Positions 45,796 to 64,000 of a DNA stretch of 64,000 bases are shown here, piece after piece. The stretch is taken from IMG/VR virus record IMGVR_UViG_2925307165_000003, positions 6,264-70,263 of that record, one strand, 5' to 3'. Source of the DNA: a virus. Lineage: Duplodnaviria > Caudoviricetes. Both the position numbers and the translations under genes were made by a program. The notes under the pieces were generated by a model. That model was not told the DNA's origin. It worked only from the letters and a program-made list of their open reading frames with translations, and did no database searches. How positions within the stretch are numbered: position 1 is the stretch's first letter; the number at the start of each line of letters is the position of its first letter.

Positions 45796-45808
45796 CAGGC
45801 GTTTATTT

Positions 45809-48069: not shown

Positions 48070-48137
48070 GATTGAAACTTTTATCTCTTTATGGCGATAA
48101 TAGACATATGAAATCTTTACCAAGGAGAGTGAGTTTT

Positions 48138-49688: not shown

Positions 49689-49738
49689 CCATTCATAACT
49701 GGATGGTTATTATTTTTGCCTGAAAGGAGGCGTAACCT

Positions 49739-49951
49739 TTGGTGATTATAAAAAAACTTGAATTAGCACTTGATCTAACGAGACCTGCTGAAGAATTAGT
49801 TGAAGCGATTATAACAGTATTAGAATTTTACCCAGGACGACAATTTGAGATTTTGCAGCAAGTTGATCATAGAATCGGTGAAATGTTAGGTGCATTGCAA
49901 CCAAAAGAAAACACAAAATTAGAACCAGCAATAAATTCGGAAAAACAATAG
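49739..49951 (+). CDS. Hypothetical protein
   Basis: AAAGGAGG SD. Confidence 0.65.
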   Translation: MVIIKKLELALDLTRPAEELVEAIITVLEFYPGRQFEILQQVDHRIGEMLGALQPKENTKLEPAINSEKQ

Positions 49952-49968
49952 AAAGGGGGCGAATTGTA

Positions 49969-50427
49969 ATGACAAAATCTCAAATTGCTGCGTCAACAGT
50001 AGGCGCAGTACTTATTCCAACATTTGATTTTTTATACGGGGAGGCGGACGCTGTCGTAACCATCATGGTCGCACTTTTATTTTTTATTATCATGGATTGG
50101 TTATCTGGTATTCGAGCCGCCAAAAAGGATAACACATATGCCAGTAAATATGGAATTGATGGAGTCTTCCGGACATTCTTCATGTTGCTACTTCCCGCGG
50201 GTGGACATCTGCTTGATATGGTGTTCGGGTTGCCTGGAGCGATATTTGGAGCATTGTCTATCGGGACCTTGTACCACGTTTTGCAGAGCATGACAGCAAA
50301 CTCAATTCGAGCAGGATGGGGAGATTCACTTCCGTTGCCGATCTTGGAAGTAGTGCTCAAGTGGGTAGGGAGTGAGCTAGATAAAAAGGTCAAAAGGGCA
50401 GCGAGCAGACAAGGGGATGAAGAGTAA
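49969..50427 (+). CDS. Holin (phage holin 4_1-like)
   Basis: TM segments, MDWLSGIRAA; directly upstream of endolysin. Confidence 0.85.
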   Translation: MTKSQIAASTVGAVLIPTFDFLYGEADAVVTIMVALLFFIIMDWLSGIRAAKKDNTYASKYGIDGVFRTFFMLLLPAGGHLLDMVFGLPGAIFGALSIGTLYHVLQSMTANSIRAGWGDSLPLPILEVVLKWVGSELDKKVKRAASRQGDEE

Positions 50428-51128
50428 TGACACTGACGCTAGATCAAGTAAAGGCAAAGTCCGCCGCGCGGCTCTCCGGGCTGCAGCTAGTCGTTAAGAC
50501 TGCTACCGTAGCGCTGATTGAGCGCTGTTATATTCGGGGAGTAAATATAGTCATTACCCAAGGGCTTCGCACAATTGCCGAGCAGGACGCATTGTATGCT
50601 CAAGGACGTACTAAGCCAGGTAGCATAGTCACGAATGCCAAGGGAGGCACCAGTTACCATAACTATGGACTAGCTATCGATTTCGGATTGTTACTGCCAG
50701 ATGGCAAACAGGTATCTTGGGATTTAAAACGTGACGGTGATGGTGACAAGGTAGCTGATTGGATGGAGGTAGTTCAGGAGGCTAAAGCTCTTGGTTTTGA
50801 ATGGGGCGGTGATTTTGTTTCGATTAAGGATGCACCACATTTTCAAATAACTTTTGGGCTGACAACCTCACAATTACGTGCGGGTGCTAAGCCGTCAGAG
50901 ATCGCTATGGCGAAAGCATCTGCTGTTATAGATCGATACTTGAAGGAGTGTGAAGACGTGAGAGTAGATAAGGCAAATACAGTAGTGAACGGCAGTAAGC
51001 TAGCAGACGGGAGCGTTTTGATCGAAGGGAGAGTATATGTACCTCTAGCTGCAATAGGTAAAGCGCTAGGCGCTGATGTAACGTGGGATAATGTGACCAA
51101 AACGGCTACACTGACTACTAATAAGTAA
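50427..51128 (+). CDS. Endolysin, M15 L-Ala-D-Glu peptidase
   Basis: GLRTIAEQDALYAQGRT, SYHNYGLAID, WGGDF..IKDAPHFQ; C-terminal wall-binding-like domain. Confidence 0.93.
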   Translation: MTLTLDQVKAKSAARLSGLQLVVKTATVALIERCYIRGVNIVITQGLRTIAEQDALYAQGRTKPGSIVTNAKGGTSYHNYGLAIDFGLLLPDGKQVSWDLKRDGDGDKVADWMEVVQEAKALGFEWGGDFVSIKDAPHFQITFGLTTSQLRAGAKPSEIAMAKASAVIDRYLKECEDVRVDKANTVVNGSKLADGSVLIEGRVYVPLAAIGKALGADVTWDNVTKTATLTTNK

Positions 51129-51259
51129 TTCCCCAAGCGTTTGGGATTATGCTCACTTGTTATAGCTGGTTTTTCTTTTTAATTGGTGACACATGCCCAA
51201 GCATGAGGCGAAACAACCACATAAGTTATCTTAATTCATTTGCAAAGGAGGAAAAATAA

Positions 51260-51382
51260 ATGGGTGGAAATGTTGGAGGAGTTGGTGGCGTTGGCCATCA
51301 CCATGTTGGATTCACATCCACTGGTGCGATTCTGGTTCTTTATATCTTGCTGGTCATTATCCTTTGTTCATGCTTTATCTAA
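51260..51382 (+). CDS. YjcZ/SscA-family small sporulation protein (not in ORF track)
   Basis: AAAGGAGG SD; MGGNVGGVGGVGHHHVGFTSTGAILVLYILLVIILCSCFI. Confidence 0.85.
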   Translation: MGGNVGGVGGVGHHHVGFTSTGAILVLYILLVIILCSCFI

Positions 51383-51521
51383 ATTCTCAAACGCTTTGTA
51401 TTGTGCCCATTAGATCTTGTTGGTGACTAGAACATTAAGCAAACATTTATCGTCTCTTCATACAGTCCTAAGCTAAGAAGATTATAATAATCACATAACC
51501 CCCTTATAATATATATATAGA

Positions 51522-51551
51522 CCCTGCCGGCTGTTGGTAGGGTCATTTTTT
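51522..51551 (+). terminator. Intrinsic terminator
   Basis: GACCCTGCCGGC/GTTGGTAGGGTC plus T-tract. Confidence 0.7.
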
Positions 51552-51678
51552 TGACAACTGGTTTCGGCTGCTGGGATTTTTATTGAAAAAATTACAAAAA
51601 TAAAGGGAATATTTTCTTTTTTGGCGAATGTTCTTAGAGGGAGAGAGCCAACAATAAAATACATCGGAGGTTAAGAAG

Positions 51679-53553
51679 ATGCAATTTGATTTACATTATT
51701 TTATGAAGGCAAAGCCAGCAATTGTAGACAATGACGATCTAAGAGAGCCACAGATCCTGGCGTATATTGATGCTTTTAATCACTTCAATAAAGAGGGCTC
51801 AAGTAGAGATGCAATAATCATTTTGCCGACAGGCGCAGGAAAAACTGGCGTCATGGGGTTAGTTCCATTTGGATTATGTCAAGGTCGCGTTTTGATAATT
51901 ACTCCACAGTTAGTTATTAAAGATCACGTTATTGAGTCCTTAGATCCATCTGTACCAGATAATTTTTGGTTGAAAAGAAAAGTGATGAAAGAGTATAAGG
52001 AATTGCCTATCGTAAATGAATACGATAACGACATAAATCAAGAAGAACTAGAAAATAGCAACATCGTAATTTTGAATATACATAAATTAACTACTCGCTT
52101 TAGAAATTCTCTTTTAAAGCGAGTTGATCCTGATTTTTTCGATATGATTATTATTGATGAAGCACATCATTCACCTGCCGACACTTGGCAAAATGCATTG
52201 AATTATTTCAATAAATCAAAAGTAATCAAAGTAACGGGAACCCCCTTTAGAACGGACAGAAAACCTATTGAAGGAAAGATAATCACTGATTATGGCTTAG
52301 GAAGAGCTATGCAACAAAATATTGTTAAGTCACTAGAAAACTTTAAACTATTACCCGAGAAGGTTTATTTGACGATTGACAATGATTTTACTAAAAAATA
52401 TACGATTGATGAAGTTCGTTCCCTCGGTATTAAAGATGATAACTACATAGCCCGAAGTGTTGCTTTATCACGTGAATGCAACGAGCAAATCATTGATGAG
52501 AGTATCAATGCATTAAGAGCGAAGAAATTAGGTTCCAACATACCTCATAAGATCATTGCAGTTGCATGTAGTATCGATCATGCAGAAGCCTTGGAAAAAA
52601 TGTATGAAGAAAAGGGGCTTAGAGCAAGATTAATTCACAGTGATCTTGATAAAGATGTAAGAAAAAGGATATTAACTGATGTCGAGAATAATAGATGTGA
52701 TGTAATTGTGCATGTTGCAATGTTGGGGGAAGGTTATGACCATATATACTTATCTGTAGCGGCGATTTTCAGGCCTTTTAAATCTTTAGCGCCTTACTCT
52801 CAATTTATCGGACGAATATTAAGATATATCGATGAGCCCGGCACAATGAAACCCTCCGACAATATCGGAATAGTAATTGCTCATAGAGACTTAGGACTGG
52901 AACCTTTGTGGCGGGAGTATCAGAAAGAACTTAAAATTAAAGAAGTGATTGAAAAGGTGAGGGAACAAGAGAAGAAAGAAAGGGATCTGACCAGGGAATT
53001 AGGTGGGACTTATGAAAAAGGCATTGCAAGTGTGGAACTATTAGGAGAACTTGATACTGAATCGGAGTACTATTTAACAACAACATTAACAGAGGAAAAT
53101 GAGAAGTTTGAAGCTGAGTTACAAGAAAAAATTGAATCCTTCAAAAGTATTTTACCTAATTCAACCGAAGAAGATATTAGAAAGTTTATTATTTCTCAAG
53201 AAAAACCCAAGGATGAAAATCCTTTGTTGAAGTCTCCTAAAAAATATCGGATGTTTGTACGTAAGGAGTTTCATGACAATGTTTATTCAAACATTCCAGC
53301 TAAACTTATTAGTGAGTTCGGGGTTGAGAAGGAGGGGAGAGAGTTTGCTAAGGCGCTACCTTCTAAGTATTTTTACTTGAAAAATGATCCGAAGCTTGAT
53401 AATGCCGGATTAGTCACGAGGTATCTAAACGAACAATTAAAAGAAGAATTCGGCCCTAGGGATGTATGGACTTTAGATAACTTCTTTAGGGCACAGGAAT
53501 ACCTAGAAGACCTTGTTAAGCATTTGGCTGAAATGATACAATTATCCTTATGA
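51679..53553 (+). CDS. SF2 DEAD/DEAH-box helicase (ResIII-like)
   Basis: PTGAGKT, IIIDEAHH, VTGTPFRTD, MLGEGYD, QFIGRILR. Confidence 0.92.
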   Translation: MQFDLHYFMKAKPAIVDNDDLREPQILAYIDAFNHFNKEGSSRDAIIILPTGAGKTGVMGLVPFGLCQGRVLIITPQLVIKDHVIESLDPSVPDNFWLKRKVMKEYKELPIVNEYDNDINQEELENSNIVILNIHKLTTRFRNSLLKRVDPDFFDMIIIDEAHHSPADTWQNALNYFNKSKVIKVTGTPFRTDRKPIEGKIITDYGLGRAMQQNIVKSLENFKLLPEKVYLTIDNDFTKKYTIDEVRSLGIKDDNYIARSVALSRECNEQIIDESINALRAKKLGSNIPHKIIAVACSIDHAEALEKMYEEKGLRARLIHSDLDKDVRKRILTDVENNRCDVIVHVAMLGEGYDHIYLSVAAIFRPFKSLAPYSQFIGRILRYIDEPGTMKPSDNIGIVIAHRDLGLEPLWREYQKELKIKEVIEKVREQEKKERDLTRELGGTYEKGIASVELLGELDTESEYYLTTTLTEENEKFEAELQEKIESFKSILPNSTEEDIRKFIISQEKPKDENPLLKSPKKYRMFVRKEFHDNVYSNIPAKLISEFGVEKEGREFAKALPSKYFYLKNDPKLDNAGLVTRYLNEQLKEEFGPRDVWTLDNFFRAQEYLEDLVKHLAEMIQLSL

Positions 53554-53567
53554 AGGAGTGAACACAA

Positions 53568-53903
53568 ATGATTAGTATTACTAATGAGTTATATGACTTG
53601 ATTTACAAAAATTCTGTGTGGCCACAAGATTTATTGGAAAACCTTAAAGACCCGGATTACTTAAGCGTTAAATTCGATTCTTACCTGCAGGGAACTATGG
53701 CAGAAGTGGTTTTTTTAGATGAAGGTAAAAAGATTATCGCGAATTATTTCTTTAACAGTAAAGGTCTTGTTCAAAAAATCGAAATGATTGAAAACGAAAG
53801 TGTATTTACCGTGTACAGCCGTATTGATGAAATTGCTAAATTGTTACTCAAAACGGATAATATCCATTGTTTACAAGAGATCGTAAATCTTATTGCAGCA
53901 TAG
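53568..53903 (+). CDS. Hypothetical protein, operon partner of the helicase
   Basis: AAGGAG SD; starts 14 bp after helicase stop; shared terminator. Confidence 0.75.
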   Translation: MISITNELYDLIYKNSVWPQDLLENLKDPDYLSVKFDSYLQGTMAEVVFLDEGKKIIANYFFNSKGLVQKIEMIENESVFTVYSRIDEIAKLLLKTDNIHCLQEIVNLIAA

Positions 53904-53916
53904 ACTACAAGCATCT

Positions 53917-53940
53917 GCCCCTGTCTGGGGCTTTTTTTGT
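53917..53940 (+). terminator. Intrinsic terminator
   Basis: GCCCC/GGGGC plus T7. Confidence 0.7.
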
Positions 53941-54137
53941 TTCAGGTAAGTTTCCTTACCAGTGATATAGAGTGCATATACATAATGTTCCAGATAAAAA
54001 TATATAATTTCATTATGTTCTGACACTCCGTTACCCTACCGTAGGTAGGGTAGGTTATTTTTAAGAGTGTAATGATAGAGTGTTTGATGTTATTTTTATG
54101 GGCCTCTAAATCTTGAAAGCGTGGTGAGAAATTAGTT

Positions 54138-54674
54138 TTGAAGAAACGGTTAGAAAAAAGGTTGGCTTATTTATATTCTGGCGAATTATTTTCTTTAATT
54201 GGTTTTGTCCCGATTAGTTTTCTACTAAATTACGAATTCCCCAATCTACAATTATATTCACTATATTCATTTTGGATATCTTTTATCATTCTTGAGTTTC
54301 TTTTATTGCAAGGGACGATTTATTGGTATGTAAAGCTTAAGAGACTACGAAATGAGAATAACTCTATAACTCCAATTAATGTCGTTCGTCAATTACGTTA
54401 TTCAAAAACGTTGGACATAGTTATGATTATGACTACAATAGTTGTATTTGGTTTTGATTTAATTAAATGGTATCCGTCTTTGCCAATAGGTGGGTTATTA
54501 ATTTCTTTATTCATTTATTTCTTTGCTATCTTAGAGTTTATTAACTATTTTTACATCCAACTTTCATACGATAATGTCTCTGATATAAAAAAATTAAGTA
54601 AAAGAAGAAAATTGAAGAAATCATGCATAAATAAAGACCTTAAACGATTAAGAAATTGGAATTCTGAAAACTGA
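54138..54674 (+). CDS. Multi-pass membrane protein
   Basis: About 4 hydrophobic segments; EFINYFYIQLSYD. Confidence 0.7.
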   Translation: MKKRLEKRLAYLYSGELFSLIGFVPISFLLNYEFPNLQLYSLYSFWISFIILEFLLLQGTIYWYVKLKRLRNENNSITPINVVRQLRYSKTLDIVMIMTTIVVFGFDLIKWYPSLPIGGLLISLFIYFFAILEFINYFYIQLSYDNVSDIKKLSKRRKLKKSCINKDLKRLRNWNSEN

Positions 54675-54703
54675 GGTCTAATATTTTACCTTTTAGGGAT
54701 GAG

Positions 54704-54922
54704 TGTATAAGCAATACATATAAAGTTCTAAAGACAGACTCTGAATTTCTAACAGTTGCCTTAAAACAGTCTCAAGTGGATATAATTGAACGCCGTGGTA
54801 AACTGGCCGGCTGTATAATTGATTGTGAGGGTCCAATCCAGAAATGGAGTCCTGTTAGTGTCAAAGTTGCTGATGCTTATTACATGAGAAATGAATTTGA
54901 GTTTAGGATGGTTTTGGCATAA
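54704..54922 (+). pseudogene. Degraded small ORF
   Basis: Open frame KVLKTDSEFL...YYMRNEFEFRMVLA* with frameshifted 5' end. Confidence 0.4.
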
Positions 54923-55228
54923 GCAATATAACAAATAACCAATCAGCTTTAACTGTTTGTTTTTTTGTGTTTCGAAATCAGGTTTTCGGTTTCTTATTTT
55001 TTGGGAGCAATTAAATTAATAAACTATTTATAAAATTGTTCGTCAAAAAAAATCCTGTCCATTGTAAAGGTTAAAAATAGTGGAAATTTAAGTCTATCAC
55101 ACTCTTATAGGCATTAATGATTTATTGGATATTGTGTCATACAATTGTTTGAATTTGGATATTTTTTCACTGGATTTATTGACAAAATATAGTATATATT
55201 ATATAACGATTACAACGGAGGAGAAAAT

Positions 55229-55426
55229 ATGAAAAAAATAATGCCGAGTATAATTTTATCATTACTATCATTTCCGCTAGCAAATTTAATGCTATTCATT
55301 TATTTCAAAATTCTACCTCCATATGGTAGCAGTGAAATTGCATTATTGTCATGTGTTATTTCGATTAATTTTATTTCTTTTATTATTGCATTTTATGCAG
55401 TGATAGATAATAAAAATGGGAGGTAA
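55229..55426 (+). CDS. Small 2-TM membrane protein
   Basis: GGAGG SD; promoter TTGACA 55179, 17 bp, TATAAC. Confidence 0.65.
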   Translation: MKKIMPSIILSLLSFPLANLMLFIYFKILPPYGSSEIALLSCVISINFISFIIAFYAVIDNKNGR

Positions 55427-55432
55427 CATTTT

Positions 55433-56044
55433 ATGAACAAAGGGCTAAAAAAAATTATCGTGAGTACAATGGCTATTAGTCTCAGCTTGTCAATTCCTAT
55501 TGCAGCAAATGCTGCTACTGAACCTGTCGAGAGTGAAGCTCAAGCAGTAAACGAAAATGTTATTTTTACAGTAGATGTTAATTCTGAAACAGAGTTAAAC
55601 CAATTTTTGACCGAACTTGATGCTCACAACAAAAAATCACAAGCACTGTGGGAAAACGCTTTGGTAAGATCTCAAAATCCATCGGTTGAAAGAGAAGAAG
55701 TAGCTAACATATCTCCTAGATCTGTAGAGATAAGCTCAGTATCAAAGTATGTCAAATTCTCTGGACATTCAGGAAATTTAGGAGCTTATGTTTCTTATAA
55801 TAGGGAGACTAGAGGGTCTTCTTACATATTTGGAGATATCAATGGATTTTATATGTACGGTTCCAGCTCTACTACTACGGTTTCAAATCTAAACTATGAT
55901 GGCGTAAAAATCGATGCTAGCAGAACATATGCTGTTACTTCTACTCTTTTGGTAGGTGTGAAAGATTATCATGACAATTTTAGTTATTATCCTTACCAAG
56001 CTTATATAGAGTTTAATACTTCCGGTTCAGGTACTTGGTACTAA
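55433..56044 (+). CDS. Secreted protein
   Basis: Sec signal ending IAANAA; acidic N-region; Tyr/Ser/Gly-rich C-domain; terminator 56080-56117. Confidence 0.75.
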   Translation: MNKGLKKIIVSTMAISLSLSIPIAANAATEPVESEAQAVNENVIFTVDVNSETELNQFLTELDAHNKKSQALWENALVRSQNPSVEREEVANISPRSVEISSVSKYVKFSGHSGNLGAYVSYNRETRGSSYIFGDINGFYMYGSSSTTTVSNLNYDGVKIDASRTYAVTSTLLVGVKDYHDNFSYYPYQAYIEFNTSGSGTWY

Positions 56045-56238
56045 TATTTATATAATACACATTTTAATTTAAAATTGTTTGAAGAAGTCTAGTTAACACT
56101 GGACTTCTTCTTTTTTAGTTGTTTTAAATGGTTTGAGTTAGCTGCATGGTATACGCAAGTTGGTGGATTTTTATTAAAAGCAAGCGTAGGCTTTGTTGGA
56201 GTAGATTTGAATTTTGAACTTACACATAAACCCCCCAT

Positions 56239-56317
56239 TAAACATAATGTTCGATGGGGTATTTTTTTTACATTGATTTACGAACACATGTTTGGTTATA
56301 ATACAAACAAACGTTCT
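56239..56317 (+). promoter_or_regulatory. LexA (SOS)-box-controlled promoter
   Basis: CGAACACATGTTTG at 56281-56294 between TTGATT and TATAAT; further box-like sites near 56239 and 56304; resembles Bacillales CGAACN4GTTCY. Confidence 0.8.
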
Positions 56318-56337
56318 TGTTTTGGGAGGCTATCAAC

Positions 56338-56535
56338 ATGCAAATGCAGATTGGTCAAACCGTTGAAATTGTTTACTTAGATAAAGTCGGCAAGATTACT
56401 CAGCGTAAAATTGATATTAAAGGCATAAAGGACGGGAAGATTCGCGCAACATGCTTAAATATAGGAGCGCCGAGGATGTTTTTGGCGAGAAACATATTAG
56501 CATGGCAGCCAAGTGATAAAGGAGCAATTGCATGA
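56338..56535 (+). CDS. Small WYL-like protein
   Basis: VEIVYLDKVGKITQRKI...ATCL...APRMF. Confidence 0.7.
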   Translation: MQMQIGQTVEIVYLDKVGKITQRKIDIKGIKDGKIRATCLNIGAPRMFLARNILAWQPSDKGAIA

Positions 56536-56777
56536 AGCTATTAACGGATAAAGAAAAAGAAGTCCTTGAAGCGTTGATTAAGATGATCAAAGTCAATCAC
56601 TATCCACCAACGTTACGTGAACTTGCCAAGGAGGTAGGGTTGTCATCTACAGCGGTAATACATGCGCACATGGAGCGCCTAGAGATTAAGGGGTACATAC
56701 AGAGAGGTAAGAACTTGCCACGAGCGTTGAGAGTTATTAAGGGAGTCGACGAAGACAATGAAACCACAACAGCGTAA
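56532..56777 (+). CDS. LexA DNA-binding-domain-only protein
   Basis: LT.KE.EVL...YPPTLRELAKEVGLSSTAVIHAHMERLEIKGYIQR...PRAL; no peptidase domain. Confidence 0.88.
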   Translation: MKLLTDKEKEVLEALIKMIKVNHYPPTLRELAKEVGLSSTAVIHAHMERLEIKGYIQRGKNLPRALRVIKGVDEDNETTTA

Positions 56778-57102
56778 GAAACTTGAAGGTAATGGACTTT
56801 GGGAGGGAAGTCGGATGATAATGCCTGAGCATAAAAATAGGATTCTGGACGATTCGCTGAATGAAGAGGTGCGATCAAAGCCTGATTTGGATCCCCAAGC
56901 ATTAGCTGAAATCTCACAGGTATTAGCTCAATCTTTAGAGGATTGCAGTTCGATCACGATTACATTGTTTGGGGAACATGAGGACAGATCCATCTATGGA
57001 ATAGTTATGAGAGTAGATCAGTATCTTAGACAGATTAAATTCCGTCAAGATGATGATTGGGAGTGGATTAAAATAGAAAAGATTGTAGATGTGATTACAT
57101 AA
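56758..57102 (+). CDS. YolD-like protein
   Basis: KKLEGNGLWEGSRMIMPEHK...KPDLD. Confidence 0.85.
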   Translation: MKPQQRKKLEGNGLWEGSRMIMPEHKNRILDDSLNEEVRSKPDLDPQALAEISQVLAQSLEDCSSITITLFGEHEDRSIYGIVMRVDQYLRQIKFRQDDDWEWIKIEKIVDVIT

Positions 57103-57146
57103 AAACACTGTTCGTCTTCAGAAGTGACGGCGAACAGTGTTTTTTA
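57101..57146. terminator. Bidirectional terminator
   Basis: AAAAACACTGTTCG/CGAACAGTGTTTTT. Confidence 0.75.
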
Positions 57147-57269
57147 CTATATATAGTGTTTTTTTTGTGATTTGAACCTTTTATTACAAGGTATGTTGAC
57201 ATCAGCATATCGTTCTGTTTATAATTTATACATCAGATTATATTAATCTGAAATTCTTGCAGAGGAGGG

Positions 57270-57746
57270 ATGGAAATGGCTGTACATGGATATGCTGCGC
57301 CTATTGTATCGGAACTGGTGGGCATACCATATGCCACCTTGGATTCCTGGGTAAGAACAGGGTTCTTCATTCCTGAAATTGCCCAAGCTTCTGGAAAAGG
57401 GAGTCGTAGATTATATTCTTTTTCCGATGTATGCATCCTGAAGATACTTCAATTACTCAGAGTCAGAGGACTGAACTCGGAAACACAAAGCCAATTAATT
57501 AATCTATTAAGAACTGGTGAGAAGGAGGTAGAGGCATATGGCAAGGACGACATTGCATTATTTAAAAACGGAGAATTTATTATTGAAAAAAAAGAAAGAG
57601 TCAAGAGTATAAGTTATGAAGAATTAGAAGATATATATTTTATAATACCGATCGGAAGATTTATTAAAGAACTTAAGAGAGATATCACTGCACGTGACAT
57701 TCATAGTGTAATTGCAAATGAAGACAGAAAAGTAAAGGTGGGATAA
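57270..57746 (+). CDS. MerR-type HTH protein
   Basis: GIPYATLDSWVRTG...GKGSRRLYSFSDV; promoter TTGACA-18-TATAAT at 57196-57225. Confidence 0.8.
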   Translation: MEMAVHGYAAPIVSELVGIPYATLDSWVRTGFFIPEIAQASGKGSRRLYSFSDVCILKILQLLRVRGLNSETQSQLINLLRTGEKEVEAYGKDDIALFKNGEFIIEKKERVKSISYEELEDIYFIIPIGRFIKELKRDITARDIHSVIANEDRKVKVG

Positions 57747-57954
57747 AACGTGGCAGAAGAAAAAAGTAGCCGTCGCTCTTGTAGGGAGCCAACGGCTGTG
57801 TAGAGGTTCATAACTGACACAATCGGCGTCCATGTGTGTAGTGAACCGGCTACAAAAATAATATTAATAAAAACATCGTACAATAATATTATCACATGGA
57901 TCAAGCTCCCGGCAAGATACAATTTATTGGCAATTGCCAGGGAGGTCATCAAAA

Positions 57955-58197
57955 ATGACTAATATTATACCATTTGACAACAGTTCCGAGAAACCCAAGA
58001 AAAAGCAGAGCAAGTACATCAAGAAGGTTATTAACGGACAAGAACTTACTTGGAGCATCGAGTTTCAGGCTTGGGGTGTTTTCCGCCCTTACCGAAAGAA
58101 TCAAAAGACTGGCGAACTTGAATGGGCGAAGATGTACGGGAAAAGAGCTTTTTTCATTCCTGTCTATTATGGTCCATTGATGGACGATGTTGACTAA
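57955..58197 (+). CDS. Small basic hypothetical protein
   Basis: AGGGAGG SD before ATG 57955. Confidence 0.65.
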   Translation: MTNIIPFDNSSEKPKKKQSKYIKKVINGQELTWSIEFQAWGVFRPYRKNQKTGELEWAKMYGKRAFFIPVYYGPLMDDVD

Positions 58198-58249
58198 TTA
58201 AATAAATAACTCCCGTTTTATACTCCGGTTCGTATTTATCGGGAAAAGG

Positions 58250-58286
58250 ACAAGCCCCGTCAGTGAATTACTCTGGCGGGGCTTGT
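58250..58286. terminator. Terminator between convergent genes
   Basis: ACAAGCCCCGTCAG/CTGGCGGGGCTTGT. Confidence 0.7.
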
Positions 58287-58760
58287 TTAATGTATCATCC
58301 CCATTTCACGGAGCCTATCCTTAATCTTCTTTATACGGGCTTCTTTTTCAGTGGCTTCTTGTAACCTCGTATCTTTATACTTCTTAATAATCTTCTCCGA
58401 TTTTATTTCGCCGATGTTCGTTTTGTTGTCAATGGTAGCCGTTGGGGCGATCTTGTGATTTTCTATTGTCTTGGGATCTGCAGAAATTCGTTCTAGTAAA
58501 CTGAGTAGAAGCCTTTGCTTTTTAATACCAATCCTCGGCACCTGACATATTTCTTTCCATGTGCAGTTTAATAAACGTTCAAGATCTAAATAACCTTGGA
58601 TGTATAGAGCATTAATAAGCCCCATTAAATCGGGTTCCTGTTCTTCTTCTTGAGCCACGGCTTTTATACAAGCGATATCCATACAATAAAGATGTTGAGG
58701 TATAGAAAAATACGACTTTAACGGTTTATTTATCTCTAAAGAATTTATCATTACCATCAC
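58287..58760 (-). CDS. Protein with RNA polymerase alpha-CTD-like (HhH) segment
   Basis: INALYIQGYLDLERLLNCTWKEICQVPRIGIK. Confidence 0.6.
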   Translation of the reverse strand: MMVMINSLEINKPLKSYFSIPQHLYCMDIACIKAVAQEEEQEPDLMGLINALYIQGYLDLERLLNCTWKEICQVPRIGIKKQRLLLSLLERISADPKTIENHKIAPTATIDNKTNIGEIKSEKIIKKYKDTRLQEATEKEARIKKIKDRLREMGMIH

Positions 58761-58948
58761 TCCAAGATGAAAATTAAGCAGGTCGATTTTATCATATCAA
58801 TTTTTCAAAGAGTAATCTATGTAAAGGTCATCCATGCACGGTCAACTCGTAGCGGAATTCTGCGACCATACCAGATTATACATCCGGTAGGTTTCGACCT
58901 ACTCCGTAGCAGGTCCAAAGCGCTTGGTATGCTCATCAGGCGTTTGAT

Positions 58949-59128
58949 TTATTTAATTTCATCGTTAAGTGAGTCGAGTGCATTCAAGACGATCTTGACG
59001 CTTCTTACCTTCGCAAATGGTGATGTATTTCCGCGAATTTCACTTTTAATGATCCTGATTGCTGTCTCGTAAGGAGAATCGCCAGAATCGCGGAGTGATC
59101 TGAGGACGAAGTCTAATTTGAGTGTCAT
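58949..59128 (-). CDS. Small hypothetical protein (not in ORF track)
   Basis: AAAGGAGGA SD; 59 aa MTLKLDFVLRSLRDSG... Confidence 0.55.
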   Translation of the reverse strand: MTLKLDFVLRSLRDSGDSPYETAIRIIKSEIRGNTSPFAKVRSVKIVLNALDSLNDEIK

Positions 59129-59384
59129 GTTATTCCTCCTTTAGTGGGTTGAAGCCCCTGGATATTAATATACTATTCTTATCAAACCCCAAACCTTATC
59201 AAACCCCAAACTACTGATCATTTTCTGAACATCAAAAGAGCCGCCACAGGAGTAATTCTGCTCAGCTCTTTTTAACTCAAACCTCAAACTCTGCCCGCCC
59301 AGGTATAAGTGTATCTTCAGGTGCGGGTTCTAGATATTCCGGTAGTTCAATGATAAGTAAGTACCTAACGGGAGTAATGGAACT

Positions 59385-59794
59385 CTATCTTGCTTTGACA
59401 GCATTCACAACAGAGCTTTTATTCCAATTATAATGTCAGCATTATTTTGAATTTTGGTTGGCACTTGTTCTTGCCCCCATGGTTTAATGCCAATAATATA
59501 TTTATTGTATGAGATTGCGGTATCTATTTCGTAATCAATCCATTCGCTGTGAGTTTCATACATCTCTGATAGAATGATGACGATTGAGGCTGGCTTGATT
59601 TGTTCATCAATCATTTCCTTCAACTTCTTTTTGCTAATCAGGGCATTCTGATCAATCAGTCCGTCGTGTTCTAGTACTGAGTAATTTTTCCAGTTAAATT
59701 CACACTTTGATTGAGCTTCATTAAGCAATTGAACGATTATATTGTAATGCTCAGTGTATTCCCAAGCATGGCTAATGAAAATATTATAATTCAC
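59385..59794 (-). pseudogene. TIR-like (MTH538/DUF1863, ThsB-like) gene with 3' frameshift
   Basis: IFISHAW, SEWIDYEI, IIGIKPWGQEQVP; the expected WNKSSVVNAVK tail lies in a shifted frame ending at 59385. Confidence 0.75.
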
Positions 59795-60048
59795 TTTACA
59801 CTCCCTTTCTGGTTTTCGACTTCTTGACTGAGAGGAAGTGGATCTTCTGAAGCAGATTCTAAGTGTTCAGGTAACTCATCGATGAGAGAAGACTCACCAA
59901 TGTCAAGAAGAATAGTTTGTGTTCCTTTCGCTACTACAATGCCAATCTTTCCAGCATTCGGACCGGCAGTTATAAGGATACGAATGCCTAGTGTTAAATC
60001 TTCAATTTCCAAATTATTACCTCCAGATATTAATTTTCCCTTATGCAT
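59791..60048 (-). CDS. Small KOW-motif protein
   Basis: GIRILITAGPNAGKIGIVV. Confidence 0.55.
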   Translation of the reverse strand: MHKGKLISGGNNLEIEDLTLGIRILITAGPNAGKIGIVVAKGTQTILLDIGESSLIDELPEHLESASEDPLPLSQEVENQKGSVK

Positions 60049-60375
60049 AATTTTCTCTTATTTAACTCCAAACAACTGATCATTTTCTGAACATCAGTAA
60101 ATCCTAAGACTAAAGTATAAAAAAGACACTGCCAGTAGTAGTAATACTTGCGATCATTTTAGTGAAATCGTGTTATCATATGACCGTTGTGGGAGCACTT
60201 CACGATAAAAGTTAAATGCGAGGGTGACAACTATGCATCTCGACCAATTCCCAAGCAAAGCACAAAATTTCATTTAGAACTCTGTTATGTAGCGATAGAG
60301 AGTTAAGGAAAATCCCCAGTCAAAAGAAATATATATACGAGAGTCTGAGGATTGGATCTATGAAAGAAAAGAGCC

Positions 60376-60708
60376 GTGAATATACACACGGCTCTTTTTG
60401 TAACTCAAAACTCGACTTCTTTCCATCCTGTTGGTGGTGGGTCCTCAGGTACTGGTTCTAGATTTACTCCAAGTCTCCCTGAGCTGGAATGTTTAAGCGG
60501 ACGTATGCCAGTACCAATAAAGGCAGCTCTGAAAGAACTGGTTGAGGAAAATTATATTGAGTGGAATCCAAACACGCCGCCTGAGACGGCGGTTATAATT
60601 GAAGGATGGGAACGTCCTGACTCACGTTTTAAAAAGCGTCAGATAGCATCACAGGAGATACAATGGGGTATGGATGGCGGTAATATTGATTACTGGACGA
60701 TGCACTAG
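60376..60708 (+). pseudogene. Winged-HTH-like ORF preceding YolD, 5' end probably lost
   Basis: PSLPELE..SGR....IKAALKELVEENYIEW; weak start. Confidence 0.45.
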
Positions 60709-60719
60709 GAGGGCTTTAC

Positions 60720-61055
60720 ATGGTTAGAAAAAAACTAGAAGGAAATGGACTATGGGAAGGCAGTCGTATGATTATGCCAGAACATAAGGCAAGGATACTA
60801 GACGATGCGTTGAATGAAGAGACACGTGAAAAACCTGATTTAGATCCCCAAGCATTAGTGGAGATCTCACAGGTATTAGCTCAATCTTTAGAGGATTGTA
60901 GTCCGATTACAATTACATTGTTTGGTGAATATAAAGACAGATCCATCCATGGAATAGTCATGAGAGTCGATTGGCAGTTGAAACAGATTAAGTTCCATCA
61001 TGATGACGATTGGGAATGGATTAAATTAGATAATGTTGTCGGCGTAAGCACGTAA
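60720..61055 (+). CDS. YolD-like protein (paralogue of 56758-57102)
   Basis: Highly similar protein sequence; GGAGG SD. Confidence 0.85.
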   Translation: MVRKKLEGNGLWEGSRMIMPEHKARILDDALNEETREKPDLDPQALVEISQVLAQSLEDCSPITITLFGEYKDRSIHGIVMRVDWQLKQIKFHHDDDWEWIKLDNVVGVST

Positions 61056-61098
61056 GGAAATGTTTCCTGCACATAAATTAATTAAACCCCAACAGTGA

Positions 61099-61323
61099 TT
61101 ATACTGGTGGGGTTTCTTCGTCTTCAGGAGTAAATTCAAGGATATCTTGCACAGTTACATTCAAGTATTTGCAAAGCTTGTCCAACACATCCCGGGGATA
61201 ACGTTCCATTGTGTCATTGTAGACCCGTCTTACAACCTCAAAGTTTATCCCCGTTCCGCGCGCAACTTCTCTAATAGATAAACCGCGTTCGTCCACAATA
61301 ACCTTTAGCTTAGATTTCAACAT
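61099..61323 (-). CDS. XRE-family HTH regulator
   Basis: RGLSIREVARGTGI...LDKLCKYLNVTVQDILEF; SD AGGAGGG. Confidence 0.88.
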   Translation of the reverse strand: MLKSKLKVIVDERGLSIREVARGTGINFEVVRRVYNDTMERYPRDVLDKLCKYLNVTVQDILEFTPEDEETPPV

Positions 61324-61352
61324 CGGACAACCCTCCTGCATTAAAAATAACA

Positions 61353-61435
61353 CGACTTATAAAACAAGTCAATTTGATGTTGACTTACTAAATAGGTCGT
61401 GGTATTCTTGATTCATCGACTTACTAAATAAGTCA
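61353..61435 (+). promoter_or_regulatory. Divergent sigma-A promoter with three palindromic operators GACTT-N7-A(A/G)GTC
   Basis: Operators at about 61354, 61382, 61418; TTGACT-17-TATTCT with extended TG. Confidence 0.8.
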
Positions 61436-61477
61436 AATAAACTTAGCTGGCGGGCATACACAGGAGGGATGAAGGGG

Positions 61478-61618
61478 TGGAAAAGTTAAATACGAGGGAT
61501 ATTTTACTTGATTGAGTTGGCGCTTCGACAAATGAAAGACGGTGCTAGTTCAAGGCAGGAATTGGAGTTGCGGTCTTTGATTGAGAAGTTGCCGCGATTG
61601 GACATCGAGCAAGTTTAA
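61478..61618 (+). pseudogene. Frameshifted small ORF
   Basis: MEKLNTRDIL then shifted frame LIELALRQMKDG...DIEQV*. Confidence 0.4.
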
Positions 61619-61734
61619 CCACCTGATGATGGCTCCAGCGGACAGGAGCCGAAACAATACCGCTGTGAAGCGTGGTTGTCGCGGAATCCGCCATAAGAGG
61701 ACAGCGCGCCCTCACATGTATAGGAGTGATAGAT

Positions 61735-61980
61735 ATGTTGGCAGCTCACCAAAGATTAGCTGAAATTTTTCATGAGAACTTGAAGGGACCATTAAGTGAG
61801 GAACTAGCTATAGAGTTGCAGCATTGTCTCCATGAGAATGCAAAGTATTGTTGGGATTACAATACTCTTAATAATCAACTTATCCAAGCTAGATCCACTC
61901 ATGATACTAATTGGGAAATGGAACTTCTGGTTAAGATGGATTGGCTTAGACGCTCAGGTAGGTTGGTGAAAGGGTATTAA
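61735..61980 (+). CDS. Small helical hypothetical protein
   Basis: AGGAG SD; MLAAHQRLAEIF...LQHCLHENAKYCW. Confidence 0.7.
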   Translation: MLAAHQRLAEIFHENLKGPLSEELAIELQHCLHENAKYCWDYNTLNNQLIQARSTHDTNWEMELLVKMDWLRRSGRLVKGY

Positions 61981-62092
61981 GATAATGCCGCCTGATAGAC
62001 CTATTACGTAGTAAATAAGTAGTATACTCAATACCTGGTAGGGTTATATAATTAACCTAATGAATGAAAATTATGTCAGGTGGTGCATTGTT

Positions 62093-62722
62093 ATGTCGTG
62101 GGAGCCAGTGGGGTTTGTATTTTTTTCAACATTAGAGTTTATAGCTATCTATTTTATTATCTGTGCTTTATTTAGATTAAAACCAGTGGAAATTATATTT
62201 CCAGCATTATTCATCATTTTGTTAATGGATTTACAGAGTTTCTTTTTTAGAGAAGACCTACAGTTAACCGCAATTGTACCCTTTATCAATATTATACTGT
62301 TTGTCTTGCTATTTACAGTTGTGATGCGAATCCCGCTGGTCTGGTCTGCTGTTATATCTGTAATGGGTTATTTTGCTTACGTACTCCTGCAAGTCGCTCT
62401 AGTCCAATTGACTTTTGGATATTTATCCGTAAATGAATTGACGTTACATCCTGAAAAAGGGTATTTATTGCAAACAATCAGCAGTGTATTAGGCATAGGC
62501 GGTTCGCGTGTTTTTTATATGCTAGGTGGAGGGTTCACATTTGATTTTGAGAAATTAAGGCTAAAACGTGAGGCGATTTATGTATATACACTTATCGGCT
62601 GCGCACTATTATTAACGATCTGGCTTCTATACAGTGGCAACACATTAATTGATGTTATCTCTGTATCCATCACATTTATCTTCTTTGCTTATTACGCAGT
62701 TAAAAAGGAGAAGGATAGATGA
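62093..62722 (+). CDS. Multi-pass (about 7 TM) membrane protein; putative peptide sensor without kinase domain
   Basis: Hydrophobic throughout; ATGA-coupled to agrB; no H-box or HATPase motifs. Confidence 0.75.
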   Translation: MSWEPVGFVFFSTLEFIAIYFIICALFRLKPVEIIFPALFIILLMDLQSFFFREDLQLTAIVPFINIILFVLLFTVVMRIPLVWSAVISVMGYFAYVLLQVALVQLTFGYLSVNELTLHPEKGYLLQTISSVLGIGGSRVFYMLGGGFTFDFEKLRLKREAIYVYTLIGCALLLTIWLLYSGNTLIDVISVSITFIFFAYYAVKKEKDR

Positions 62723-63246
62723 TTGATTTTCTCTCCTTGAGAATCGCTCAAGGAATAAAGAAGGGTGTCCCTGATAGCCCTATTACAATTACTGTCATGA
62801 AATATGCACTCTCAATCATTATAAATGCGTTAATGATAATCGTCCTATCGTTACTAATTTCAAGATTAACGGGAAAAACACCAGAGGTAACGATAGCACT
62901 TGCTGTTTTCCCTTTGTTACGACAGGCGTCTGGTGGGTATCATATGCGGTCCGGAATGAAATGTGTTTTGTTTTCTACTGTATTGATTACTTCAATTTCC
63001 CTTGCTGACTTTGATTATTGGACGATCATAACATTGGGTATTGTAAGCTTTATTCTTGTGGGGTTGTTTGCGCCGTCGAATATAGAGAAACAATCCCGAA
63101 TCCCTAAAAATTACTATTCTGTCTTAAAGATTGTATCATTGGTGATCGTATCATCTAATTTTTTAATAGTTTCTCCAGTAATCGGCGCTGCATTCCTCGC
63201 GCAAAGTATCTCATTAATTCGCATGAAAGGGGGTGATATCAAATGA
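62719..63246 (+). CDS. agrB: AgrB-family peptide-processing membrane protease
   Basis: LRQASGGYHM...KC catalytic His/Cys, FAPS; YAL.IIIN N-region. Confidence 0.92.
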   Translation: MIDFLSLRIAQGIKKGVPDSPITITVMKYALSIIINALMIIVLSLLISRLTGKTPEVTIALAVFPLLRQASGGYHMRSGMKCVLFSTVLITSISLADFDYWTIITLGIVSFILVGLFAPSNIEKQSRIPKNYYSVLKIVSLVIVSSNFLIVSPVIGAAFLAQSISLIRMKGGDIK

Positions 63247-63386
63247 AAAATATGATGGCAAGTGTTAAGCGCATGGCACTGACGAACGTGGCTGCTCTAC
63301 TTGGAATAGTAGCTTTATCTTCAGTAAGCACTGCAAGTGCTTGGTACGTGTATAATGGTGAAGTGCCGGAGGAGTTGCTAAAATAG
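63243..63386 (+). CDS. agrD: AgrD-like cyclic lactone autoinducer precursor (not in ORF track)
   Basis: 47 aa MKNMMASVKRMALTNVAALLGIVALSSVSTASAWYVYNGEVPEELLK: amphipathic leader, TAS core, EVPEELLK tail; ATGA-coupled to agrB. Confidence 0.88.
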   Translation: MKNMMASVKRMALTNVAALLGIVALSSVSTASAWYVYNGEVPEELLK

Positions 63387-63403
63387 AGAAGTAGGTGATA
63401 GGT

Positions 63404-63802
63404 GTGCTGAAACTATCCGTAACTCGTGATCCAGAGGGAGAATCTGGATTAAACAATATAGATGTTGATAGTATACTAATGTTGGATTTTGCTATGAGTT
63501 CAGATAAAGTCGCTGTCCATACTGCAGAGGAAATTTATTTTACAGTAGGAACTCTAAAATATTGGAATAAAACTTTAAATAACAGTGGGTACAGATTTGG
63601 AATTGCTGACAGAAGTAATTGTGTGAATTTAGAAAAAATAGAAGTGCTAGATAAAACTTTAAAAATAGCGTATTTCGAAAAAAATTTCACGAGTAAATCA
63701 AAACGCTGTATGATTGCAAGATACCGCTTTAAAGAGGTTGCAGAAAGTTTGATGTTAGTCAATCCTAATATAATCATTACGGCAAGTGAGAGTCTTTATT
63801 AA
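63404..63802 (+). CDS. LytTR DNA-binding-domain-only regulator
   Basis: IDVDSILML...VAVHT...GTLKYW...F...DRSNCVNLEKI; no receiver domain. Confidence 0.82.
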   Translation: MLKLSVTRDPEGESGLNNIDVDSILMLDFAMSSDKVAVHTAEEIYFTVGTLKYWNKTLNNSGYRFGIADRSNCVNLEKIEVLDKTLKIAYFEKNFTSKSKRCMIARYRFKEVAESLMLVNPNIIITASESLY

Positions 63803-64000
63803 AGGCTCTTTTTTTATTACCACAATATTCATAAAATGTAAAGTTAAAAACTCATGTTCGTATATGCAATCTGTCCAGCCATTTGCAATATACAAAATAC
63901 ACAATTTGGTTTTTAATATAAGTATATTCGCGCTATGAAACAGTATTGACCTTTTACTTGGTTGCGTGCTATGGGCTATTTCTTCGTTCGGGAGGAGCAT

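What the first reader, a model, noticed from the sequence alone, without database searches (positions are those of the whole stretch)
62093..63802. Kinase-less agr-like cassette: candidate phage cyclic-peptide communication system
Seen: operon of a ~7-TM protein, AgrB (catalytic His/Cys), an unannotated 47-aa AgrD (first three ATGA-coupled) and a LytTR-only protein; no histidine kinase or receiver domain. By analogy to clostridial AgrD the core would be a Ser-linked lactone around S-A-W-Y-V with tail YNGEVPEELLK. Known: canonical agr signals through AgrC/AgrA phosphotransfer; C. difficile phage phiCDHM1 carries agrB/C/D; streptococcal LytTR regulatory systems (HdrRM, BrsRM) pair a LytTR protein with a membrane inhibitor. 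Inference: a phosphorylation-free hybrid in which the membrane protein senses the peptide and holds or releases LytTR, possibly an arbitrium-like lysis/lysogeny or induction signal. Novelty and membership of the prophage cannot be confirmed from this window.
Basis: partly seen in the sequence, partly recalled or inferred. Interest (0 to 1): 0.87.

Follow-up and report, generated by a model that had tools for sequence, protein, structure and literature searches.

The report
Kinase-less agr peptide-signalling cassette on prophage
A four-gene operon at the edge of a Paenibacillus prophage makes a cyclic signalling peptide and pairs it with a kinase-less receptor-like membrane protein and a bare DNA-binding protein; the same cassette is common in Paenibacillus chromosomes and also occurs in phage genomes.

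Summary
Window 62093-63802 holds a 7-helix membrane protein, AgrB, a 47-aa AgrD and a LytTR-only protein, with a promoter-like region upstream and a terminator at 63788-63810.

New here:
- The membrane protein belongs to an unnamed family of about 210 aa. Its first five helices are homologous to the sensor domain of AgrB-linked histidine kinases (hhalign 97%). It is a stable kinase-less AgrC-sensor relative, not a broken gene.
- The family was found in 192 of 301 Paenibacillaceae species genomes, mostly with AgrB, AgrD and LytTR beside it. Only 3 of 20 sampled loci sit in clearly phage-like DNA.
- The cassette also lies in isolated Brevibacillus phages Abouo and Davies and in 21 IMG/VR contigs, two of them with terminal repeats.
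- Ser at the ring position is kept in 49 of 50 AgrD peptides. Ring divergence tracks the membrane protein, not AgrB or LytTR.

Most likely this is a phosphorylation-free agr variant: the peptide is sensed by the membrane protein, which controls LytTR. A role in lysis-lysogeny is untested. The attR site lies beyond the record. A 2014 paper had noted the phage cassette but did not mention a LytTR gene in the passages I read.

The parts
61735..61980 (+). 81-aa DUF7667 gene directly upstream, linked to the cassette in several loci
   Evidence: PF24704 at E 4.5e-25 and phrog_13817. Homologous genes sit directly upstream of the cassette in G003, in L009 and in L103. Contigs of runs X7 and X5 match from 61704 and 61710 onward.
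62005..62024 (+). Direct repeat TACGTAGTA / TAAGTAGTA, 11 nt start to start; candidate LytTR site (inferred)
   Evidence: It is the only match to GTAGTA-N5-GTAGTA in the window and in the left 6.4 kb of the record. The related motif AGTA-N7-AGTATAC is found in 9 of 139 loci, always 65-85 nt upstream of a TM gene.
62023..62052 (+). Promoter-like region: weak -35-like TATACT (62023-62028), 18-nt spacer, -10 TATAAT (62047-62052); my reading, not called by the scan
   Evidence: Read from the sequence. Conserved in the 4-sequence alignment A3 and in a subset of loci. Not listed by the consensus scan.
62093..62722 (+). 7-helix membrane protein (209 aa), kinase-less relative of AgrC-type sensor domains; proposed peptide receptor
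62719..63246 (+). AgrB peptidase (175 aa), His75/Cys82
   Evidence: PF04647 at E 2.1e-19, phrog_10353 at E 6e-34, catalytic residues conserved.
63243..63386 (+). AgrD precursor (47 aa); predicted ring Ser32-Val36 (63336-63350), tail YNGEVPEELLK
   Evidence: TIGR04223 at E 1.4e-7; family pattern.
63404..63802 (+). LytTR-only DNA-binding protein (132 aa from GTG 63404; 135 aa from 63395), no receiver domain
   Evidence: PF04397. The family profile's only matches among solved structures at E<=0.01 are three chains of the AgrA LytTR domain, such as 3bs1, at E 3.9e-8. Alignment A5.
63788..63818 (+). Terminator-like hairpin and T-run ending the operon
63880..63950 (.). Conserved non-coding stretch downstream of the operon, shared with P. 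albidus L003; unexplained
   Evidence: Alignment A4 and blastn extent 61994-63950. The overlapping 81-aa minus-strand ORF has no Pfam or PHROG hit.

Best explanation
This is a phosphorylation-free variant of the agr quorum-sensing circuit, carried here at the integrase-distal end of a Paenibacillus prophage as an accessory module.

Shown:
- AgrB with its catalytic His and Cys, and an AgrD precursor with a conserved Ser five residues before the cleavage point.
- A 7-helix membrane protein whose first five helices are homologous to the sensor domain of AgrB-linked histidine kinases, but which has no kinase core.
- A LytTR DNA-binding protein without a receiver domain.
- All four genes lie between a promoter-like region and a terminator.

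Inferred:
- AgrB cuts off YNGEVPEELLK and closes a Ser32-Val36 lactone (S-A-W-Y-V).
- The exported peptide binds the outer face of the membrane protein.
- The conserved cytoplasmic loops of that protein (FRLKP, GGGFTFDFEKLRLKRE) hold or release the LytTR protein, as membrane inhibitors do in streptococcal LytTR regulatory systems.
- Free LytTR binds the direct repeat abutting the -35 of its own promoter (autoinduction) and unknown further targets.

The cassette type is primarily a chromosomal Paenibacillaceae system that temperate phages have picked up. What the phage copy does for the phage is open.
For: - Domains.
- TM family: 233 representative clusters at E<=1e-3. The 150 listed are all 248 aa or shorter. 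All named homologues are 'hypothetical protein' without Pfam.
- Sensor homology: outside Paenibacillaceae the TM profile hits the N-terminal ~190 aa of 446-460-aa kinases (SPOB_a plus HATPase_c) next to AgrB/AgrD, and ~157-aa TM proteins followed by a ~290-aa kinase and AgrB. hhalign of A2 against A6 gives probability 97.2%, E 4.3e-11, over 148 columns.
- Synteny: in 36 genome loci, TM 36, AgrB 34, AgrD 31, LytTR 29. In 21 viral loci, 21, 20, 20, 17.
- TM+LytTR pairs without AgrB exist: L035 and L041, L129 and L133.
- No kinase: in 19 of 20 loci there is none within 9.5 kb, and none in the 70-kb record.
- Ring Ser in 49 of 50 peptides, with variable ring positions 2-3.
- Co-variation in 38 non-redundant cassettes: Mantel r with ring distance is TM 0.42, AgrB 0.27, LytTR 0.29. 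Partial r(TM, ring | LytTR) is 0.32 and r(TM, ring | AgrB) is 0.34, both p 0.0005. AgrB and LytTR fall to about 0 once TM is controlled.
- Cytoplasmic loops are more conserved than outer loops: entropy 1.5-2.2 against 2.6-3.3.
- Promoter repeat. Terminator.
Against: - No test of TM-LytTR contact was possible.
- Partial Mantel tests ignore shared ancestry, so TM may simply be the faster clock.
- 7 of 36 genome loci lack a detected LytTR, and 2 lack AgrB.
- Split sensor-plus-kinase operons in other Bacillota (L081, L084, L092) show that a homologous small TM protein can work with a separate kinase. An unlinked kinase is therefore not excluded, and the host genome of this window could not be read.
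- The repeat spacing of 11 nt differs from the roughly 21-nt register I recall for AgrA-type sites, and the motif is seen in only 9 of 139 loci.
- No solved structure resembles the TM model.
- Two Paenibacillus HPK10-type kinases show no similarity to the TM profile.
Confidence: 0.55

Rival explanations
1. Phage communication system: the phage-borne cassette reports the density of lysogens or infected cells and steers lysogenisation or induction, as arbitrium does, through LytTR acting on phage regulators.
For: Complete cassettes lie inside phage genomes next to the lysogeny module: Abouo and Davies between integrase and repressor genes, and L101 and L103 with cassette, XRE, integrase, cI-like and cro-like genes in a row. 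L103 and L110 lie in records classed as having direct terminal repeats. The ring varies between phages, as expected for private channels.
Against: The candidate operator repeat occurs only at the cassette's own promoter in the 70-kb record. The same cassette is common in chromosomes without phage-like neighbours. No experiment or expression data were available.
Confidence: 0.2
2. The membrane protein is a sensor that still signals by phosphotransfer, through a kinase or response regulator encoded elsewhere in the host, and the LytTR-only protein is an accessory or competing DNA binder.
For: Homologous ~157-aa TM proteins in other Bacillota are followed by a separate 285-304-aa kinase polypeptide. 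Paenibacillus genomes hold many HATPase_c_5 kinases: 7 to 16 matches per genome in 5 genomes.
Against: In 19 of 20 loci no kinase lies within 9.5 kb, and none is in the phage record or the viral loci. LytTR is co-located in 29 of 36 and 17 of 21 loci. A phage that moves between hosts would need the partner in every host.
Confidence: 0.12
3. In this window the cassette is not part of the prophage: attR lies near 61704, and the DUF7667 gene plus cassette is host DNA or the remnant of an older element beside the integration site.
For: The record is cut at gene boundaries, so its right edge is a prediction. Contigs of two other runs match from 61704 and 61710 to the end of the stretch, and their remaining letters do not lie on it. 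The related provirus G003 also has the cassette at its right edge, cut after AgrD.
Against: Genes up to 61980 are phage-type: YolD-like, phrog_3352, phrog_6988, and relatives in P. larvae phages. In viral contigs the DUF7667 gene and cassette are followed within 1-1.5 kb by a convergent integrase (L101, L103, L108, L110). Integration there would give exactly the integrase-left, cassette-right layout seen here. Mosaic junctions at gene boundaries are common in temperate phages.
Confidence: 0.3
4. The membrane protein is not a receptor but an exporter, chaperone or immunity factor for the peptide.
For: It has no known domain and is translationally coupled to AgrB.
Against: It is homologous to kinase sensor domains. 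TM+LytTR pairs exist without AgrB. Its conserved face is cytoplasmic.
Confidence: 0.08

Closest known systems
Cassette of Brevibacillus phages Abouo (gp44-47), Davies (gp44/45-48) and Emery, noted by Hargreaves et al. 2014 (PMC3901668)
   Same: Same gene order: membrane protein, AgrB, small peptide with a PEEL/PKEL tail, LytTR protein. Hits with the Paenibacillus-built profiles: TM E 2e-22 to 7e-26, AgrB 6e-49, LytTR 3.5e-9 and 4.6e-4. These are temperate phages with integrases.
   Different: About 35-37% AgrB identity. There the cassette is divergent from the integrase in mid-genome. The passages I read from the paper mention AgrB, a putative AgrD and HATPase-less membrane proteins, and mention LytTR only for three Pseudomonas phages. 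Emery was not examined here.
Staphylococcus aureus agrBDCA
   Same: AgrB and AgrD chemistry, five-residue ring, acidic C-terminal tail. The only solved-structure matches of the LytTR profile at E<=0.01 are three chains of the AgrA LytTR domain.
   Different: No kinase core on the sensor and no receiver on the regulator. Ser in place of Cys, so a lactone rather than a thiolactone. The sensor gene is first in the operon.
Clostridioides difficile phage phiCDHM1 agr3 locus (agrC-agrB-agrD)
   Same: Phage-borne, sensor gene upstream of agrB, no AgrA (PMC3901668). The kinase-AgrB-AgrD loci found here in other Bacillota have the same order.
   Different: phiCDHM1 AgrC is a full kinase of 445-453 aa, and no LytTR gene is reported for that phage. 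I did not compare its sequence.
Streptococcal LytTR regulatory systems (HdrRM, BrsRM; Zou et al. 2018, PMC6193735)
   Same: A LytTR regulator without receiver, paired with a membrane protein without enzymatic domain; direct repeats just upstream of the -35 (abstract and passages).
   Different: There the regulator gene precedes the membrane gene. agr occurs twice in that paper's text, but neither passage was among the 12 of 18 places shown, so I cannot say whether agrBD or a peptide signal is discussed there. Homology of the membrane proteins was not tested.
Arbitrium (AimR/AimP/AimX) of SPbeta-like phages
   Same: A phage-encoded secreted peptide with a receptor and a location near lysogeny genes.
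   Different: Arbitrium uses a linear peptide sensed inside the cell by a TPR receptor (recalled). Nothing of that kind is in this cassette.

Membership tests
agr quorum-sensing system (AgrBDCA) | AgrB membrane peptidase with catalytic His and Cys | tested here: met
   PF04647 at E 2.1e-19. His in 35 of 35 and Cys in 34 of 35 aligned homologues.
agr quorum-sensing system (AgrBDCA) | AgrD precursor with ring nucleophile five residues before the cleavage site and a conserved acidic tail | tested here: met
   TIGR04223 at 31.5 bits against a cut-off of 19. Ser at -10 from the conserved Pro in 49 of 50 peptides.
agr quorum-sensing system (AgrBDCA) | AgrC: membrane sensor fused to a histidine kinase core (DHp plus ATPase) | tested here: not met
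   The sensor-like part is present (hhalign 97.2%), but the protein ends after helix 7 with no kinase domain. No kinase is found in the record.
agr quorum-sensing system (AgrBDCA) | AgrA: receiver domain plus LytTR domain | tested here: not met
   Only LytTR, residues 21-119 of 135, with no other Pfam hit at E<=1.
agr quorum-sensing system (AgrBDCA) | Secreted cyclic (thio)lactone peptide that autoinduces the operon | not testable with these tools
   Needs LC-MS and reporter assays.
LytTR regulatory systems (HdrRM/BrsRM type) | LytTR regulator lacking a receiver, co-transcribed with a membrane protein lacking enzymatic domains | tested here: met
   Co-location in 29 of 36 and 17 of 21 loci.
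LytTR regulatory systems (HdrRM/BrsRM type) | Regulator gene upstream of the membrane inhibitor gene | tested here: not met
   The order here is TM, AgrB, AgrD, LytTR. PMC6193735 states that the regulator comes first in all LRS operons it identified.
LytTR regulatory systems (HdrRM/BrsRM type) | Direct repeats just upstream of the -35 that give positive autoregulation | tested here: inconclusive
   A 9-nt repeat at 62005-62024 abuts the -35-like hexamer and is positionally conserved in 9 loci. Binding and autoregulation are untested.
LytTR regulatory systems (HdrRM/BrsRM type) | Membrane protein inhibits the regulator | not testable with these tools
Arbitrium-type phage communication | Intracellular TPR receptor (AimR) and a linear peptide | tested here: not met
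   The cassette proteins carry no such domain.
Arbitrium-type phage communication | Peptide controls the lysis-lysogeny decision | not testable with these tools
   Needs infection and induction assays.

The most novel reading that the evidence does not exclude
Temperate phages of Paenibacillus and Brevibacillus carry a self-contained cyclic-lactone communication channel (synthase, peptide, kinase-less 7TM receptor, LytTR output). It works without phosphotransfer, and through phage-specific ring variants it lets related prophages count their own kin and set lysogeny or induction. That would be a second, mechanistically unrelated class of phage peptide communication beside arbitrium.
Probability: 0.15. 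Interest if true: 0.9.

Novelty: new variant of a known kind. Interest (0 to 1): 0.66.

Why it matters
Agr signalling is textbook two-component signalling. This family has dropped both the kinase core and the receiver domain but kept the sensor membrane module and the DNA-binding domain. It was found in about two thirds of the Paenibacillaceae species sampled. If the membrane protein controls LytTR directly, that would show how a peptide receptor can signal without phosphate. It would also link agr to the poorly understood LytTR regulatory systems, whose signals are unknown. Because complete cassettes ride on temperate phages, it gives a simple four-gene system in which to test whether phages use host-type cyclic peptides for their own decisions. 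The 7TM family has no name or Pfam model, so annotation would gain as well.

Tried and rejected
- **Near-identical or distant DNA in the phage collection.** No match for 61900-64000 or 54001-62000. tblastn of the TM protein against phages also found nothing, although profile searches later found the Abouo and Davies homologues.
- **Structure.** Foldseek against PDB gave no match at E<=0.001. VIA-align wide gave a best Z of 7.7, below the level the tool calls meaningful for helical proteins. The profile against PDB sequences gave only weak CorA hits at E 0.03. The protein atlas returned only unnamed clusters.
- **Paenibacillus kinases.** hhalign of the TM profile against two Paenibacillus HPK10-type kinases gave probability below 1%. 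The homology is to a different, AgrB-linked kinase group.
- **att sites.** No repeat of 12 nt or more is shared between the first 400 bases of the record and the region after the endolysin. The single 11-mer match is at chance level: 152 of 200 shuffles had one. attL lies outside the record, so this says little.
- **tRNA genes near integrases in 7 loci.** None found. My impression of a tRNA-like fragment in L101 rests only on reading a translation.
- **Hammerhead-like motif** (CUGAUGA ... GAAAC) at about 61620-61660. There was no Rfam match at E<=1 in 61300-64000 and the fold z-score was -0.45. Rejected.
- **Sequencing runs.** No RNA holder was listed, so nothing can be said on expression. In run X7, 16 of 30 bins of 44001-64000 have no cover, and in X5, 3 of 30. 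Contig data cannot prove absence, so I do not use this to say those strains lack the prophage.
- **Literature.** Six searches found no paper describing a kinase-less AgrC relative paired with a LytTR-only protein. Chen et al. 2025 (PMC12180512, sections 6 and 10 read) and PMC13700820 (passages) concern a different Cys-type locus that PMC13700820 labels agrABCD. Supplements were closed; S3 Table of PMC6193735 and the data files of PMC12180512 could list these loci.
Full report
**What the window is**

The window is bases 6264-70263 of a single 70,263-bp virus record. The record starts exactly at the stop codon of a minus-strand tyrosine integrase gene. It ends exactly at the ATG of a small minus-strand ORF. 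It therefore looks like a provirus cut out of a genome at predicted gene boundaries, not at att sites.

From the left it carries an integrase, a cI-like repressor, cro-like and HTH genes and a ParB-like gene. Then come replication genes, terminase, portal, major head protein, tape measure and tail genes. A holin lies at 49969 and an endolysin at 50427-51128. About 11 kb of small accessory genes follow:
- a helicase-like gene;
- two YolD-like genes;
- genes matching phrog_6988 and phrog_3502;
- an XRE regulator.

The host is a Paenibacillus. The membrane protein is 96% identical to a protein of Paenibacillus sp. FSL L8-0506.

**The observation**

All four ORFs are present as described.
- AgrB matches PF04647 at E 2.1e-19. 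The last protein matches only LytTR, residues 21-119 of 135.
- The 47-aa peptide matches the AgrD family model above its cut-off.
- The stop and start codons of genes 1-2 and 2-3 overlap as ATGA.
- A terminator-like hairpin with a T-run follows the LytTR stop at 63788-63818.
- Upstream I read a TATAAT at 62047-62052, a weak -35-like hexamer, and abutting it a 9-nt direct repeat at 62005-62024. The promoter is my reading; the consensus scan did not list it.

**What the membrane protein is**

The protein has no Pfam or NCBIfam hit, and every named homologue is a 'hypothetical protein'. An exhaustive profile search found 233 representative clusters at E<=1e-3. The 150 listed are 58-248 aa, mostly 205-235 aa. 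It is therefore a stable stand-alone family.

AlphaFold2 on an 85-sequence alignment gives a confident 7-helix bundle with pLDDT 90.2 and pTM 0.87. By the positive-inside rule I read it as N-out, C-in. No solved structure resembles it.

The informative result came from a phylum-wide genome search. Outside Paenibacillaceae the profile hits two kinds of protein:
- the N-terminal ~190 aa of 446-471-aa open frames;
- ~157-190-aa proteins.

The long ones are histidine kinases (SPOB_a plus HATPase_c/HATPase_c_5) lying directly beside AgrB and AgrD. The short ones are followed by a separate 285-304-aa kinase and then AgrB.

Profile-profile comparison of the family with six such kinase N-termini gives probability 97.2%, E 4.3e-11, over 148 columns covering helices 1-5. 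The protein is thus a kinase-less relative of an AgrC-type sensor domain. Two Paenibacillus HPK10-type kinases, not AgrB-linked within their 3.3-kb loci, show no similarity.

**How widespread the cassette is**

The family was found in 192 of 301 sampled Paenibacillaceae species genomes, often in 2-7 copies. P. albidus has 3 matches and P. rhizophilus 4.

In 36 loci of 3.6 kb, iterated profile searches found TM in 36, AgrB in 34, AgrD in 31 and LytTR in 29. One of the seven without LytTR is cut by its contig end. Partial forms exist:
- TM+LytTR without AgrB: L035 and L041, and also L129 and L133;
- TM+AgrB+AgrD without LytTR: L015, L033, L037, L038 and L040.

In P. rhizophilus the cassette lies between a LysR-like regulator gene with proB/proA-like genes on one side and leuC/leuD-like genes on the other. 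I assigned these gene names by eye from the translations.

I took 20 loci with 9.5-kb flanks, chosen only for lying on the first contig of their assembly. Three more have 2-3 such genes, and 14 have none or one. The reference set was small, so this is a lower bound.

**Phage carriage**

The Brevibacillus phages Abouo and Davies are annotated as complete genomes of isolated phages. They carry the same four genes between integrase and repressor genes. Davies has two membrane paralogues.

A scan of IMG/VR found 21 viral contigs with a family member: AgrB in 20, AgrD in 20 and LytTR in 17. Two of the four without LytTR are cut at the contig end. In eleven of the 21 the cassette is well inside the contig.

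The records of L103 and L110 are classed as having direct terminal repeats. In L101, L103, L108 and L110 the cassette is followed within about 1-1.5 kb by a convergent integrase or serine recombinase gene. In L101 and L103 cI-like and cro-like genes come next. If attP lies beside the integrase 3' end, integration gives integrase at the far left and the cassette at the far right, which is the layout of this window.

The gene directly upstream here is DUF7667, 61735-61980. A homologue is also directly upstream of the cassette in G003, L009 and L103.

In P. albidus the cassette starts about 130 bases from a large serine recombinase gene. That gene belongs to an element that splits a CotJC-like Mn-catalase gene.

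**Is this copy inside the prophage?**

This is unresolved. A contig of run X1 continues about 7.1 kb past the window end, but I cannot read it. Contigs of two other runs match from 61704 and 61710 to the end of the stretch at about 95-96% identity, and their remaining letters do not lie on the stretch. That marks a discrete block consisting of DUF7667 plus the cassette. The block edge could be a mosaic junction or an att site. I put about 0.3 on the cassette lying outside this prophage.

**Peptide and co-variation**

In 50 AgrD peptides that carry the P-x-x-L tail motif, the residue 10 before the Pro is Ser in 49. One further peptide, L111, lacks the motif and was left out. The next four residues vary at positions 2-3 and are hydrophobic at positions 4-5. 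The tail is conserved.

Across 38 non-redundant complete cassettes, ring distance correlates best with membrane-protein distance:
- TM r = 0.42;
- AgrB r = 0.27;
- LytTR r = 0.29.

The TM correlation survives control for either other protein (r 0.32 and 0.34, p 0.0005 each). The AgrB and LytTR correlations vanish once TM is controlled. This fits a receptor role, but it is not phylogeny-corrected. Cytoplasmic loops of the membrane protein are more conserved than outer loops.

**Mechanism**

The best-supported reading is an agr circuit without phosphotransfer. AgrB makes a Ser-lactone peptide. The kinase-less sensor binds it. The sensor's conserved cytoplasmic face holds or releases the LytTR protein. 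LytTR then acts on the repeat at its own promoter and on unknown targets.

The repeat is the only match to its pattern in the 70-kb record. A related motif sits at the same distance upstream of the TM gene in 9 of 139 loci and nowhere else in them. The LytTR family's only solved-structure matches at E<=0.01 are chains of the AgrA DNA-binding domain.

Not shown:
- the peptide itself;
- any protein contact;
- DNA binding;
- any effect on the phage.

**Comparison and novelty**

Hargreaves et al. [quoted passage not shown] In the passages shown, LytTR is mentioned only for Pseudomonas phages.

A 2025 review still states that AgrA is absent from phages with agr homologues. The LRS paper defines the regulator-plus-membrane-inhibitor paradigm. 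The term agr occurs twice in its text, but I did not see those passages. The P. polymyxa AIP work concerns a Cys-type peptide from a different locus that has a kinase and a regulator.

As far as six searches reach, four things are new here:
- the LytTR-only partner;
- the homology of the membrane protein to kinase sensor domains;
- the size and range of the family;
- its split between chromosomes and phages.

I rate it a new variant of a known kind and of solid interest. The phage-communication reading is only a minority possibility.

Noticed in passing
L003 7996-9834 (P. albidus), with G001 contigs C6, C37 and C94: A CotJC-like Mn-catalase gene is split after about 70 residues by an element that begins with a 537-aa serine recombinase gene. 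Two C-terminal fragments lie on other contigs. This resembles sporulation-gene intervening elements.
   Followed up: partly
L081, L084, L092 (other Bacillota genomes): agr loci in which the sensor is split: a ~157-aa membrane protein, then a 285-304-aa kinase with its own N-terminal hydrophobic stretch that looks like membrane helices (read by eye, not predicted), then AgrB. This may be an intermediate between fused AgrC and the kinase-less form.
   Followed up: partly
L026, L027, L030, L039, L040 (upstream of the TM gene): A subfamily of cassettes has a small HTH_59/HTH_17 gene abutting the membrane-protein gene instead of the promoter seen in the window. It may be a fifth component. Pfam was run on four of these; L027 is included by similarity to L026.
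   Followed up: partly
window 56758-57102 and 60720-61055: Two YolD-like genes (phrog_3352) lie in the post-lysis region. Abouo has one about 2.3 kb upstream of its cassette.
   Followed up: partly
window 51679-53553: A 624-aa helicase-like gene (phrog_16) sits directly after the lysis module, an unusual place for a replication gene. It may be an accessory or defence gene.
   Followed up: no
window 61545-61715: A stretch that looks G+C-rich by eye (no composition profile was run), with a CUGAUGA ... GAAAC motif resembling a hammerhead core. There was no Rfam match, and its fold is no better than shuffles.
   Followed up: yes
window 63880-63950: The non-coding stretch after the operon terminator looks better conserved with P. 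albidus in the alignment than the 69% overall identity of the 1,976-bp blastn match that spans the cassette (no separate identity computed). A promoter-like site on the minus strand (63916-63887) points back into the LytTR gene.
   Followed up: partly
L002 2604-4008 (phage Davies): Davies carries two tandem paralogues of the membrane protein (gp44, gp45) ahead of one AgrB.
   Followed up: partly
L013 2808-3542: In one P. rhizophilus cassette the LytTR domain sits at the C-terminus of a 245-aa protein whose N-terminal ~145 residues have no Pfam match.
   Followed up: partly
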